Shown here piece by piece: positions 29,501-32,500 of a DNA stretch of 64,000 nucleotides; the stretch's first letter is position 1; each line of letters starts with the position of its first letter. Made by a program: the position numbers. This DNA is from Escherichia coli (lineage in GTDB: Bacteria; Pseudomonadota; Gammaproteobacteria; Enterobacterales; Enterobacteriaceae), in the NCBI RefSeq assembly GCF_965641715.1, contig NZ_OZ282453.1; one strand, 5' to 3'.

Positions 29501-32500
29501 ATTTATCGGCAATAACGCCGCTGGGGGCATAAAGAATAATAGCTGCAATACCAAAGGTACTCATTATTAAACCTATCTCGGTATTGCTGAATCCCATAAA
29601 TTTCGCCATGGGAATTTGATAAATATAACGTAAATAAGCCAGGTCGAAACTAACGCCGCCGCTAAAACTAATTATCGCGAGGGTTATCCAACGGCGATAT
29701 GAGTTGTGTTGCATATCGTATTCCCATTTGTAATAGACAAAAAAAAGAGAAAAGTAAGCCGCCCTTTCAGGTGGATTACTTTTCTCAGGTCTCTAGTAAT
29801 TGAAATAATAAATAACATGGAAAGCAGAGGTGTTGTGTGAGAGTAATCACGCTTCTGCTTTTTAAAACTATTTGATAATGCGAATATCACACTGTGATTA
29901 CGATCACATTAGCAGTTATGTCCTTATGCTACAAATTATCTCCAGTTACCAGAGATAATGAGAAAGGTAACTTCCCTCTCGCGGGGGAAGTTACCTTTCT
30001 TTTTTTTTGCCTTACGGAAATTGGAGCTAACTATGTCAATCGAATCTCTCAATACGTTCTCAATGGATTTTTTCTCCCTGAAAGGTAAAACCGCAATTGT
30101 TACCGGCGGGAATAGCGGTTTAGGCCAGGCATTTGCCATGGCGTTGGCCAAAGCAGGCGCAAATGTCTTTATTCCAAGTTTTGTCAAAGATAACGGCGAA
30201 ACAAAGGAAATGATTGAAAAACAGGGTGTTGAGGTGGACTTCATGCAGGTGGATATCACCGCAGAAGGCGCGCCGCAGAAGATAATCGCCGCCTGTTGCG
30301 AACGTTTCGGTACCGTCGATATTCTGGTTAACAATGCCGGTATTTGTAAGCTGAATAAGGTGCTGGACTTCGGTCGTGCCGACTGGGACCCGATGATTGA
30401 TGTGAACCTGACCGCCGCATTCGAGTTAAGCTATGAAGCGGCAAAAATTATGATCCCGCAGAAAAGCGGTAAAATCATTAATATCTGTTCATTATTCTCT
30501 TACTTAGGTGGACAATGGTCACCTGCATATTCTGCCACTAAACATGCTCTTGCCGGATTCACCAAAGCTTATTGTGATGAACTAGGTCAATATAATATTC
30601 AGGTAAATGGTATTGCCCCTGGCTATTATGCAACAGATATTACGCTGGCGACACGCAGTAATCCAGAAACCAATCAGCGCGTTCTTGATCATATTCCAGC
30701 AAACCGTTGGGGCGATACTCAGGATTTAATGGGCGCAGCCGTATTCCTCGCAAGTCAGGCATCGAATTATGTCAACGGGCATTTATTAGTGGTCGATGGC
30801 GGTTATTTAGTGCGCTAATCCATAACGGTGGTTTCTGTTTTCTCTTATTAATGATTATTCCATTTTTATTATCAGGAAGGAATTACTATGTCTTTATCTC
30901 GCGCAGCGATTGTCGACCAGCTAAAGGAAATTGTTGGTGCAGATCGCGTAATTACCGATGAAACAGTATTAAAGAAGAACAGTATTGACCGTTTTCGTAA
31001 ATTTCCGGATATTCATGGCATTTATACTTTGCCGATTCCGGCAGCGGTCGTAAAACTCGGTTCCACAGAGCAAGTATCCCGTGTGCTGAATTTTATGAAT
31101 GCGCACAAAATTAACGGTGTGCCGCGTACCGGTGCTTCCGCCACCGAAGGTGGGCTGGAAACTGTTGTAGAAAACTCGGTGGTGCTCGACGGTTCCGCCA
31201 TGAATCAAATCATTAATATTGATATTGAGAATATGCAGGCGACGGCGCAATGTGGCGTTCCGCTGGAGGTGCTGGAAAACGCGTTGCGTGAAAAAGGTTA
31301 CACCACGGGGCATTCTCCGCAGTCAAAGCCGCTGGCGCAGATGGGCGGCCTGGTAGCAACTCGCAGTATCGGGCAGTTCTCCACACTCTACGGCGCAATC
31401 GAAGATATGGTCGTTGGTCTGGAGGCAGTGTTGGCAGATGGCACCGTCACACGCATTAAAAACGTGCCACGCCGCGCGGCTGGCCCGGACATTCGTCACA
31501 TCATCATCGGCAACGAAGGTGCATTGTGCTATATCACTGAAGTAACAGTGAAAATCTTTAAATTCACCCCGGAAAACAACCTCTTCTACGGCTATATCCT
31601 GGAAGACATGAAAACCGGCTTCAACATCCTGCGTGAAATCATGGTGGAAGGGTATCGTCCGTCGATCGCTCGTTTGTATGACGCTGAAGATGGCACCCAA
31701 CACTTCACCCATTTTGCCGACGGAAAATGCGTGCTGATCTTTATGGCTGAAGGTAACCCTCGCATTGCGAAGGCGACGGGCGAAGGGATTGCGGAAATCG
31801 TTGCCCGCTACCCGCAATGCCAACGCGTGGACAGCAAGCTGATCGAAACTTGGTTTAACAACCTGAACTGGGGACCGGATAAAGTGGCTGCCGAACGTGT
31901 GCAGATCCTCAAAACCGGCAACATGGGCTTTACTACCGAAGTGTCCGGCTGCTGGAGCTGTATCCACGAAATCTACGAAAGCGTTATTAACCGTATTCGT
32001 ACCGAGTTCCCGCACGCCGACGACATCACTATGCTGGGCGGTCACTCCTCTCATAGCTATCAGAACGGCACCAACATGTACTTCGTCTACGACTACAACG
32101 TTGTCAACTGTAAGCCGGAAGAGGAAATCGACAAGTACCACAATCCGCTCAACAAAATCATTTGCGAAGAAACCATTCGCCTCGGTGGTTCGATGGTGCA
32201 CCACCACGGTATCGGTAAACATCGCGTTCACTGGAGCAAGCTGGAACACGGCAGCGCGTGGGCGTTGCTGGAAGGGCTGAAAAAGCAGTTCGATCCTAAC
32301 GGCATTATGAATACGGGTACTATCTATCCGATTGAAAAATAATGTGTCAGGCAGCGTTCCGCGATGATGGGGCGTTGCCTTTTCGGCTTCTCAGGCGAGA
32401 AGCCGTTCTTATTACCGGACAATGAAGGGGTAAAGATGAACACTTCACCGGTGCGAATGGATGATTTACCGCTTAACCGTTTTCACTGTCGAATTGCTGC

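What the first reader, a model, noticed from the sequence alone, without database searches (positions are those of the whole stretch)
29893..29908. Perfect consensus CRP site in the yqcE/ygcW divergent promoter region
TGTGA-N6-TCACA with both half-sites perfect lies between divergent yqcE (MFS transporter) and ygcW. This points to catabolite control of the island, and a class II-like spacing puts a plausible start site about 20 nt upstream of the leader hairpin. It fits the island being a carbon-source utilisation cluster of unknown substrate.
Basis: seen in the sequence. Interest (0 to 1): 0.45.

Follow-up and report, generated by a model that had tools for sequence, protein, structure and literature searches.

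The report
Known CRP site, ygcW promoter
The perfect CRP-binding palindrome is real, but it is an already published E. coli CRP site. It sits at the activating position of the ygcW promoter and is mirrored by a second CRP site for yqcE; both promoters feed into conserved leader terminators that nobody has characterised.

Summary
TGTGATTACGATCACA lies at 29893-29908 and is the only perfect TGTGA-N6-TCACA in the window. It is also the top hit of a CRP matrix built from 106 independent ChIP-seq sites: 18.4 bits, about 0.005 expected per 64 kb.

The site is not new. PhyloScan predicted it in 2007. CRP binds it in vivo in ETEC ChIP-seq (2015) and in vitro in Footprint-seq (2026, Kd about 1.7 nM). 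In 2021 yqcE-ygcE was reported as Crp-activated and EMSA-positive.

This work adds four points:
- Published start sites at 29940-29944 put the site at -39.5 to -43.5 of the ygcW promoter, which is class II geometry.
- A second CRP site (29836-29851, 13.6 bits) sits at -42.5/-43.5 of the yqcE start (29801/29800).
- The two halves of the spacer form an inverted, paralogous module: CRP site, extended -10, conserved leader, intrinsic terminator.
- Both CRP sites and both leaders are conserved in about 57 species of Enterobacterales. Each site keeps a fixed distance to its own gene, while the distance between sites ranges from 36 to 173 bp.

Published data show short terminated RNAs from both leaders. 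The cluster also encodes YgcP, a GlpP-family antiterminator, so control probably combines CRP with antitermination. That last step is inferred.

The parts
29893..29908 (.). CRP site 1 (the finding): TGTGATTACGATCACA, centre 29900.5. Promoter-proximal site of the ygcW promoter.
   Evidence: 18.4 bits. ChIP-seq. Footprint-seq Kd 1.7 nM. Conserved in 56 of 57 orthologous spacers at 131.5-144.5 bp from the ygcW ATG.
29836..29851 (.). CRP site 2: TGTGAGAGTAATCACG on the plus strand (CGTGATTACTCTCACA on the yqcE strand), centre 29843.5. Promoter-proximal site of the yqcE promoter.
   Evidence: 13.6 bits, above the median (12.9) of the ChIP-seq sites. At least 12 bits in all 54 distinct orthologous sequences. 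Lies 42.5/43.5 bp upstream of the mapped yqcE start sites.
29927..29935 (+). Extended -10 element of the ygcW promoter: TGcTACAAA (K-12 has TGcTAAAAA). There is no separate -35 hexamer, because CRP site 1 covers that position.
   Evidence: 'TGnTA' is conserved across the orthologues (consensus). Its position fits the start sites.
29940..29944 (+). ygcW transcription start cluster: published dRNA-seq Class I start site RVS_(I)-2898388, range 2898384-2898388 in U00096.2.
   Evidence: Coordinates mapped through.
29943..30008 (+). ygcW leader RNA (published as ecr2774). It has a conserved 5' element CAGTTACCAGAGATAATGAGAAAGGTAACTTCC. Possible antiterminator arms at 29944-29950 and 29966-29972. Terminator hairpin at 29960-30001. 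T tract at 30000-30008.
   Evidence: Fold -34.2 kcal/mol, z -6.1. Small RNA listed at 29940-30013. Term-seq 3' end at 29995 with 40,640 reads, intrinsic terminator score 15.8, not Rho-dependent. Covariation. Covariance-model hit of 81.5 bits.
29809..29817 (-). Extended -10 element of the yqcE promoter: TGtTATTTA, read on the minus strand.
   Evidence: The hexamer lies at -13 to -8 of the mapped start.
29800..29801 (-). yqcE transcription start: published Class I start site FWD_(I)-2898527, range 2898527-2898528.
29739..29802 (-). yqcE leader RNA (published as ecr2775), a paralogue of the ygcW leader: CAATTACTAGAGACCTGAGAAAAGTAAT..., terminator hairpin at 29786-29747, T tract at 29746-29739.
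   Evidence: Fold -20.7 kcal/mol, z -4.8. Small RNA listed at 29801-29738. Term-seq 3' end at 29750, intrinsic terminator score 11.4. Covariance-model hit of 74.7 bits. Paralogy shown.
30033..30818 (+). ygcW, a short-chain dehydrogenase/reductase (SDR) family oxidoreductase. First gene downstream of CRP site 1 and the leader.
28437..29714 (-). yqcE, a major facilitator superfamily (MFS) transporter. First gene of yqcE-ygcE, which is reported as Crp-activated.
35535..36110 (-). ygcP, a GlpP-family (PF04309) antiterminator. It is the candidate factor acting on both leaders; this link is inferred.
   Evidence: Pfam E = 1.4e-62 over the full length. PDB 3kts E = 1.2e-27. The ORF is in the window. 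A match in all but five of the 59 related loci; the five are L016, L027, L047, L060 (which hold little or no flank on that side) and L042.

Best explanation
The palindrome is a genuine, high-affinity binding site for cAMP-CRP, and it acts as the class II activator site of the ygcW promoter.

How the ygcW side works: when glucose is scarce, cAMP-CRP binds 29893-29908. This covers the -35 position of a promoter that otherwise has only an extended -10 (TGcTACAAA, 29927-35). CRP recruits RNA polymerase, and transcription starts at 29940-44.

The mirror image: a copy of the same module on the other strand drives yqcE-ygcE from 29801/29800. It uses its own CRP site (29836-29851) and its own extended -10 (TGtTATTTA).

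The second layer: under laboratory conditions most transcripts from both promoters stop at intrinsic terminators in the leaders, giving RNAs of about 65-73 nt. Each leader also carries a conserved 5' segment that can pair with the 5' arm of the terminator. Full expression therefore probably needs a second signal that prevents termination. The most likely source is YgcP, the GlpP-family antiterminator encoded in the cluster, loaded with an unknown metabolite.

Shown: the sequence, CRP binding, the start sites, the 3' ends, the conservation, and Crp dependence of yqcE-ygcE.

Inferred: class II contacts, CRP dependence of ygcW itself, and the role of YgcP.

The confidence given applies to the site being a functional CRP site that activates the ygcW promoter from a class II position. 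The YgcP antitermination layer is less certain, at about 0.45.
For: Motif strength:
- It is the only perfect site in the window and the top matrix hit.

Binding:
- ETEC ChIP-seq lists the identical 16-mer for ygcW/yqcE.
- Footprint-seq gives Kd 1.7 nM.
- PhyloScan ranked this spacer second genome-wide.

Regulation:
- yqcE-ygcE is classed 'Crp activation' from crp-deletion transcriptomes plus EMSA.

Geometry:
- Class I start sites at window 29940-44 and 29801/00 put the two site centres at -39.5 to -43.5 and at -42.5/-43.5.
- Coordinates were checked against NC_000913.3 and an indel-free alignment.

Conservation:
- 56 of 57 orthologous spacers carry two sites of at least 12 bits, where 0.012 per spacer is expected by chance.
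- At site 1 the half-sites are 99% and 87% conserved, the spacer 58% and the flank 48%. There are 41 distinct spacers.
- The distance from site centre to the leader start is 42.5 in 45 of 57 sequences on the ygcW side. On the yqcE side it is 41.5 in 32 of 40.
- The distance between the two sites varies from 36 to 173 bp.

Termination:
- Fold energies, the small-RNA table, and Term-seq 3' ends with intrinsic terminator scores of 15.8 and 11.4 that are Rho-independent.
- Those 3' ends were called only in LB at OD 0.4, not in M63-glucose. This fits catabolite repression, but weakly.

Antitermination:
- One nucleotide (alignment column 31) covaries with both of its alternative partners.
- YgcP matches PF04309.
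- The B. subtilis GlpP paradigm has the same layout of promoter, binding site and 5'-UTR terminator.
Against: - No paper I could read shows CRP-dependent transcription of ygcW itself. Li et al. list only yqcE-ygcE.
- ChIP-seq cannot separate two sites 57 bp apart. The EMSA fragment and its predicted site are in supplements that are not held, so the published yqcE effect could run through either site.
- The ygcW start-site cluster is 5 nt wide, so the spacing is -41.5 plus or minus 2 rather than exact.
- The Term-seq 3' ends lie 13 and 11 nt before the ends of the T tracts, inside the lower stems. I read this as 3' trimming, but it is not explained.
- The northern probe listed for ecr2775 does not match this locus.
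- The covariation rests on few independent evolutionary events.
- Nothing ties YgcP to these RNAs experimentally.
Confidence: 0.82

Rival explanations
1. The perfect site mainly serves yqcE-ygcE, or both promoters at once. It would be an upstream (class I or III type) site working together with site 2, not a dedicated ygcW activator.
For: The only published in vivo CRP effect in this spacer is on yqcE-ygcE. The ChIP-seq motif call reported only the perfect site for the shared peak.
Against: The site lies 98.5/99.5 bp upstream of the yqcE start. That is 57 bp (about 5.4 helical turns) from site 2, so on the opposite face. The distance between the sites is not conserved (36-173 bp). The distance of site 1 to the ygcW leader, by contrast, is fixed within 1 bp. 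yqcE also has its own conserved site at -42.5.
Confidence: 0.1
2. Tandem CRP sites that assemble a CytR-type repression complex, as at deoP2, cdd and udp.
For: Two CRP sites lie within one short regulatory region.
Against: From established knowledge, CytR promoters need CRP sites about 52-53 bp apart serving one promoter. Here the sites are 57 bp apart in E. coli and anywhere from 36 to 173 bp in relatives. They face opposite promoters. I saw no TGCAA-type repeats between them.
Confidence: 0.03
3. The palindrome overlaps a CRP-independent sigma-70 promoter, or sits inside a longer yqcE transcript, so that CRP would occlude or block transcription rather than activate it. The candidates are the SELEX-predicted promoters TTGACA-16-TGTGAT for ygcW and TTCTCA-18-GATAAT for yqcE.
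For: Shimada et al. list those hexamer pairs for this spacer. The second is also found by the consensus scan at 29964 to 29935 on the minus strand.
Against: No start site is mapped near 29905 or 29928; the only Class I start sites are at 29940-44 and 29801/00. The consensus scan finds no more promoter-like sites than shuffled sequence does. In this window the TTGACA is TTGATA. Li et al. report activation, not repression.
Confidence: 0.03
4. A chance palindrome, or CRP binding with no regulatory consequence.
For: 7 of 100 shuffles of the window contain a perfect match. Many CRP-bound sites in E. coli have no known effect on transcription.
Against: The half-sites are kept across roughly 57 species while the 6-bp spacer changes 41 times. 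The spacing to a mapped start site is fixed. The site binds with nanomolar affinity and is occupied in vivo.
Confidence: 0.02

Closest known systems
Class II CRP-dependent promoters (galP1 and melAB type; CRP centred near -41.5)
   Same: A consensus TGTGA-N6-TCACA site overlaps the -35 position. The promoter has an extended -10 (TGn) and no separate -35 hexamer. The site centre is -39.5 to -43.5 from mapped start sites. Haycocks et al. note about -40.5 as the commonest CRP position.
   Different: CRP dependence of the ygcW start has not been shown directly. The promoter is one of a mirror-image pair, each with its own CRP site. Its transcripts end in a leader terminator, so CRP alone should not switch the genes on.
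The published ygcW/yqcE CRP site itself (PhyloScan 2007; ETEC ChIP-seq 2015; Li et al. 2021; Footprint-seq 2026)
   Same: Identical 16-mer, same spacer, same genes.
   Different: None of those papers, in the text I could read, assigns the site to a start site. None mentions the second site, the inverted duplication, the leader terminators or ygcP.
Bacillus subtilis glp regulon: GlpP antiterminator plus 5'-UTR terminators of glpD, glpFK and glpTQ, with CcpA catabolite control at glpFK
   Same: A PF04309 protein is encoded with the catabolic genes. Several promoters share the layout of promoter, conserved leader segment and intrinsic terminator. A global catabolite regulator is layered on top.
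   Different: The organism is a proteobacterium and the catabolite regulator is CRP, an activator, rather than CcpA. The ligand is unknown and unlikely to be the glp-pathway signal, because E. coli controls glp genes through GlpR (my knowledge). RNA binding by YgcP is untested. I did not compare the leader sequences with the Bacillus ones.
Divergent CRP-controlled regions with two sites (for example malE/malK and yibI/mtlA in the ChIP-seq table)
   Same: A divergent spacer holding more than one CRP site.
   Different: Here the two promoter-leader modules are recognisable paralogues in inverted orientation. Their spacing relative to each other is free to vary.

Membership tests
CRP (cAMP receptor protein) binding site | Palindromic TGTGA-N6-TCACA core that scores like known sites | tested here: met
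   Perfect core. 18.4 bits with a matrix from 106 independent ChIP-seq sites; only 5 of 106 score higher.
CRP (cAMP receptor protein) binding site | Occupied by CRP in vivo and bound in vitro | tested here: met
   Checked by literature look-up, not by a new experiment. ETEC H10407 ChIP-seq lists this 16-mer. Footprint-seq gives Kd 1.7 nM. The yqcE promoter fragment gives a Crp-cAMP EMSA shift.
CRP (cAMP receptor protein) binding site | Half-sites under selection while the spacer drifts (phylogenetic footprint) | tested here: met
   Half-sites 0.99 and 0.87 conserved, spacer 0.58, flank 0.48. 41 distinct spacers among 57 orthologous sequences.
Class II CRP-dependent promoter | Site centred near -41.5 relative to an experimentally mapped start | tested here: met
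   Start-site cluster at 29940-44 against centre 29900.5 gives -39.5 to -43.5. Site 2 is at -42.5/-43.5 of the yqcE start.
Class II CRP-dependent promoter | Core promoter with a -10 element but no independent -35 hexamer | tested here: met
   The TGnTA extended -10 is conserved. The CRP site occupies the -35 region.
Class II CRP-dependent promoter | Transcription from that start depends on cAMP-CRP | tested here: inconclusive
   Published for yqcE-ygcE but not found for ygcW. Leader 3' ends were called in LB but not in M63-glucose, which is only suggestive.
Class II CRP-dependent promoter | Activation through the AR1 and AR2 contacts of CRP with RNA polymerase alpha | not testable with these tools
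   Needs CRP activating-region mutants and in vitro transcription.
GlpP-type antitermination system | A PF04309 (G3P_antiterm) protein encoded with the regulated genes | tested here: met
   YgcP matches at E = 1.4e-62 over the full length and PDB 3kts at E = 1.2e-27. It is at 35535-36110 in the window. It is matched in all but five of the 59 related loci: L016, L027, L047 and L060, which hold little or no flank on that side, and L042.
GlpP-type antitermination system | Intrinsic terminator in the 5' UTR directly downstream of the promoter | tested here: met
   Fold z-scores -6.1 and -4.8. Term-seq 3' ends with intrinsic terminator scores 15.8 and 11.4, not Rho-dependent. Small RNAs of 73 and 63 nt.
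GlpP-type antitermination system | The protein binds the leader RNA and, with its ligand, allows read-through | not testable with these tools
   No literature on ygcP function was found. Only an alternative pairing with covariation is shown.
Any Rfam leader, riboswitch or small-RNA family | A covariance-model match at or near the gathering score | tested here: not met
   The best hits in 29000-30800 score 13-20 bits against gathering scores of 39-107.
CytR/CRP tandem-site promoter | Two CRP sites about 52-53 bp apart on one promoter | tested here: not met
   57 bp in E. coli and 36-173 bp in relatives. The two sites serve opposite promoters.

The most novel reading that the evidence does not exclude
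The CRP site is the front end of an undescribed two-signal switch. The yqcE-ygcW spacer holds two mirror-image modules, each made of a CRP class II promoter and a leader. The roughly 65-nt leaders (conserved 5' element CAGTTACYAGAGAnnATGAGAAARGTAAC plus terminator) would form a new cis-regulatory RNA family, absent from Rfam. They would be read through only when the GlpP-family protein YgcP is activated by the still unknown substrate of the ygc cluster. That would be the first GlpP-type antitermination system described in Proteobacteria, and a handle for finding the cluster's substrate.
Probability: 0.45. Interest if true: 0.6.

Novelty: already known. Interest (0 to 1): 0.25.

Why it matters
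The CRP site adds nothing new by itself. It was predicted in 2007, and CRP binding to it has since been shown in vivo and in vitro.

Its value is as an anchor. Combined with published start-site and 3'-end maps, it shows that the ygc/yqc genes are controlled in two layers. These genes form a conserved, functionally unassigned carbon-utilisation cluster present in 5073 of 5426 complete E. coli genomes. CRP turns on two mirror-image promoters, but their transcripts end in conserved leader terminators.

This explains why the cluster stays silent in the laboratory even when CRP is active. It also gives a simple reporter, leader read-through, for finding the inducer and testing YgcP.

Tried and rejected
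Searches that found nothing:
- Rfam over the spacer at a permissive threshold found nothing near a gathering score.
- The supplements of Li 2021 and of Footprint-seq are not held. I therefore could not see which CRP site Li et al. predicted, or whether site 2 is among the 1,217 Footprint-seq regions.
- Literature searches for ygcP and for the other ygc genes found no functional study.

Evidence I set aside:
- The northern probe listed for ecr2775 in Romero et al. Table S9 does not match this locus. It matches elsewhere in E. coli. I rely on their sequencing coordinates, not on the northern blot.
- The hexamer-pair promoters proposed from SELEX and by the consensus scan do not fit the mapped start sites.
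- A leader peptide starting at the conserved ATG (29958) is unlikely. It runs in frame into ygcW without a stop, and the ATG becomes AAG, AGG or TGG in Erwinia and Pantoea.

My own errors, corrected:
- I first placed the ygcW ATG at 30034; it is at 30033.
- I first assumed a shift of 1984 between the two MG1655 genome versions. NC_000913.3 shows 1978.

Further copies of the leader: the covariance model found exactly two per locus and none elsewhere in the window or in 39 related loci.
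Full report
**Observation.** The sequence TGTGATTACGATCACA is at window 29893-29908. It is the only exact TGTGA-N6-TCACA match in the 64-kb window, and 7 of 100 dinucleotide shuffles contain at least one such match. For a fairer test I built a symmetrised position weight matrix from the 106 CRP sites of the ETEC H10407 ChIP-seq table, leaving this site out. It scores 18.4 bits and ranks first in the window. Only 5 of the 106 training sites score higher, and 0.005 hits this good are expected per 64 kb of Markov-random sequence.

The window is E. coli. Of 5426 complete genomes, 5073 hold this kilobase, annotated yqcE (MFS transporter) and ygcW (SDR oxidoreductase). It is not K-12 (97.7% identity). 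The 318-bp spacer aligns to K-12 without indels and with five substitutions, none in the features discussed below.

**The site is already in the literature.**
- PhyloScan (2007) ranked the yqcE/ygcW spacer second in the genome among CRP predictions.
- Haycocks et al. (2015) list the identical 16-mer under a high-confidence CRP ChIP-seq peak at ygcW/yqcE in ETEC H10407.
- Wang, Stringer and Wade (2026 preprint) footprint it in vitro with an inferred Kd of 1.7 nM. [quoted passage not shown]
- Li et al. (2021) classify yqcE-ygcE as 'Crp activation'. They based this on a crp deletion compared with growth-rate-matched wild type, and confirmed Crp-cAMP binding to the promoter by EMSA.

**Geometry.** Romero et al. 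(2014) list two Class I dRNA-seq start sites in this spacer. RVS_(I)-2898388 has range 2898384-2898388, and FWD_(I)-2898527 has range 2898527-2898528. I mapped coordinates in two steps:
- The U00096.2 start of yqcE is 2898614, from the intergenic probe name.
- NC_000913.3 has ygcW ending at 2900273 and yqcE starting at 2900592. The version shift is therefore 1978, and window position = 2928328 minus the U00096.2 coordinate.

The start sites fall at window 29940-29944 on the plus strand and 29801/29800 on the minus strand. The centre of the perfect site (29900.5) is therefore at -39.5 to -43.5 of the ygcW start cluster. Upstream of the start lies TGcTACAAA (29927-35), an extended -10. There is no separate -35 hexamer, because CRP covers that position.

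**A second site and a mirror image.** The third-best matrix hit in the window is TGTGAGAGTAATCACG at 29836-29851. It scores 13.6 bits, above the ChIP-seq median of 12.9. Its centre is 42.5/43.5 bp upstream of the yqcE start, and TGtTATTTA lies at -16 to -8.

Aligning the ygcW side with the reverse complement of the yqcE side shows that the two halves of the spacer are paralogous. They match from the CRP site through the -10 and the start to a leader and a terminator.

**Comparative evidence.** A search with YqcE across one genome per species returned 59 loci in Enterobacterales. These range from Escherichia, Klebsiella, Citrobacter and Enterobacter to Serratia, Rahnella, Erwinia, Pantoea and Budvicia. 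ygcW lies divergent to yqcE in all loci that have enough flank.
- In 56 of 57 spacers the two best matrix hits are both at least 12 bits, where 0.012 is expected per spacer.
- The ygcW-side site sits 131.5-144.5 bp from the ygcW ATG. Its centre is 42.5 bp from the conserved leader start CAGTTAC in 45 of 57 sequences, with a range of 41.5-43.5.
- The yqcE-side site is 41.5 bp from its leader start in 32 of the 40 sequences scored.
- The distance between the two sites ranges from 36 to 173 bp.
- At site 1 the half-sites are 99% and 87% conserved, against 58% for the 6-bp spacer and 48% for the flank. There are 41 different spacers.

This is the signature of a protein-binding site, and it shows that each site is tied to its own promoter. 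It argues against a single shared site and against a CytR-type tandem arrangement.

**What lies downstream.** Both leaders fold into long hairpins followed by T tracts: -34.2 kcal/mol (z -6.1) and -20.7 kcal/mol (z -4.8). Two published data sets show short RNAs from them.
- Romero et al. list small RNAs ecr2774 (73 nt, window 29940-30013) and ecr2775 (63 nt, 29801-29738).
- Adams et al. (2021) find Term-seq 3' ends 38 nt upstream of ygcW (window 29995; 40,640 reads) and 36 nt upstream of yqcE (29750; 1,557 reads). Both are Rho-independent, with intrinsic terminator scores of 15.8 and 11.4 against a threshold of 3.

These 3' ends lie 13 and 11 nt before the ends of the T tracts. I take this as trimming back towards the G+C-rich upper stems, but that is an interpretation. 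They were called only in the LB OD 0.4 sheet, not in LB OD 2.0 or M63-glucose. This is compatible with catabolite repression but is not proof of it.

The northern probe that Romero et al. list for ecr2775 does not match this locus, so I do not count the northern blot.

**The leaders are more conserved than a terminator needs to be.** Across 87 distinct leaders, the 5' segment CAGTTACYAGAGAnnATGAGAAARGTAAC is nearly invariant.
- The terminator pairs form in 91.8% of cells.
- A rival pairing of the 5' GTTACY with RGTAAC, which is the 5' arm of the terminator, also forms in 91.8% of cells.
- Alignment column 31 covaries with both partners: AU 64 / GC 22 in the terminator and UA 57 / CG 22 in the rival helix. 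A further G-C to A-U switch occurs at columns 6 and 36.

These changes follow clades, so they represent few independent events. A covariance model finds exactly two copies per locus, both in this spacer, and none elsewhere in the window or in 39 related loci. Rfam has no match.

The cluster encodes YgcP (window 35535-36110). It is a full-length PF04309 'glycerol-3-phosphate responsive antiterminator' (E = 1.4e-62) and is related to PDB 3kts. It is matched in 54 of the 59 related loci. Four of the five without a match hold little or no flank on that side; L042 has full flanks and no match.

In B. subtilis, GlpP with glycerol-3-phosphate opens terminators that sit immediately downstream of the glpD, glpFK and glpTQ promoters, and CcpA adds catabolite control at glpFK. 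The same logic, with CRP as the catabolite arm, is the most economical reading here. It is inferred, not shown, and I found no paper on ygcP function.

**Verdict.** The finding is correct and its interpretation is essentially right, but it rediscovers a published CRP site.

Two claims need trimming.
- The 'island' claim: no comparable CRP site lies near ygcNOP. The cluster is also a widely conserved enterobacterial gene set rather than an E. coli island.
- Catabolite control is only the first layer.

What is not in the papers I could read:
- the assignment of the perfect site to the ygcW start as a class II site;
- the second site for yqcE;
- the inverted duplication of the whole promoter-leader module;
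- the conserved leader with its alternative pairing.

That context is moderately interesting because it offers a direct route to the inducer of an unassigned cluster.

Noticed in passing
window 29739-29802 (-) and 29943-30008 (+); related loci L002-L059 at about 9580-9980: Two paralogous leader RNAs of about 65 nt. Each has a near-invariant 5' element (CAGTTACYAGAGAnnATGAGAAARGTAAC), a terminator and a competing pairing. There are exactly two per locus across Enterobacterales, and Rfam has no family for them. They correspond to the published but uncharacterised small RNAs ecr2774 and ecr2775.
   Followed up: partly
window 35535-36110 (-): ygcP encodes a full-length GlpP-family (PF04309) antiterminator in E. 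coli with no published function. It is unusually well conserved, 95-98% identical between Escherichia and Klebsiella or Citrobacter. Its neighbours ygcQ, ygcR, ygcO and ygcN are only 56-77% identical in the same comparison.
   Followed up: partly
window 29995 (+) and 29750 (-): The published Term-seq 3' ends of both leaders lie 13 and 11 nt before the ends of the T tracts, inside the lower, A+U-rich part of the stems. This may be trimming or a mapping effect; it is unexplained.
   Followed up: no
window 25471-26171: A CRISPR array with type I-E repeats (GAGTTCCCCGCGCCAGCGGGGATAAACCG) lies just beyond ygcE. K-12 has an annotated CRISPR at the equivalent place.
   Followed up: no
L007 and L009 (Klebsiella spallanzanii, Citrobacter youngae), between the yqcE leader terminator and the ATG: An insertion of about 127 bp sits in the yqcE 5' UTR (GAATCCCGATGAGCTTACTGTAGTAAGTGATTCGGGTGAG...). 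From memory it looks like an ERIC/IRU repetitive element. It leaves the CRP sites and the leaders intact.
   Followed up: no
window 41622-41637 and 62050-62065: Other CRP-matrix hits. CGTGATGCGTGTAACA (12.1 bits) is the (cysI)/cysH site of the ETEC ChIP-seq table. TGCGACCACGGTCACA (14.3 bits) lies inside a 379-aa ORF.
   Followed up: no
Romero et al. 2014, Table S9 (not window sequence): The oligonucleotide listed as the northern probe for ecr2775(u+) does not match the ygcW-yqcE spacer. It matches another E. coli locus, so the probe labels may be mixed up.
   Followed up: partly
window 29932: The -10 hexamer of the ygcW promoter is TACAAA in this strain. K-12 and many of the related Enterobacteriaceae have TAAAAA. 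The possible effect on promoter strength was not assessed.
   Followed up: no
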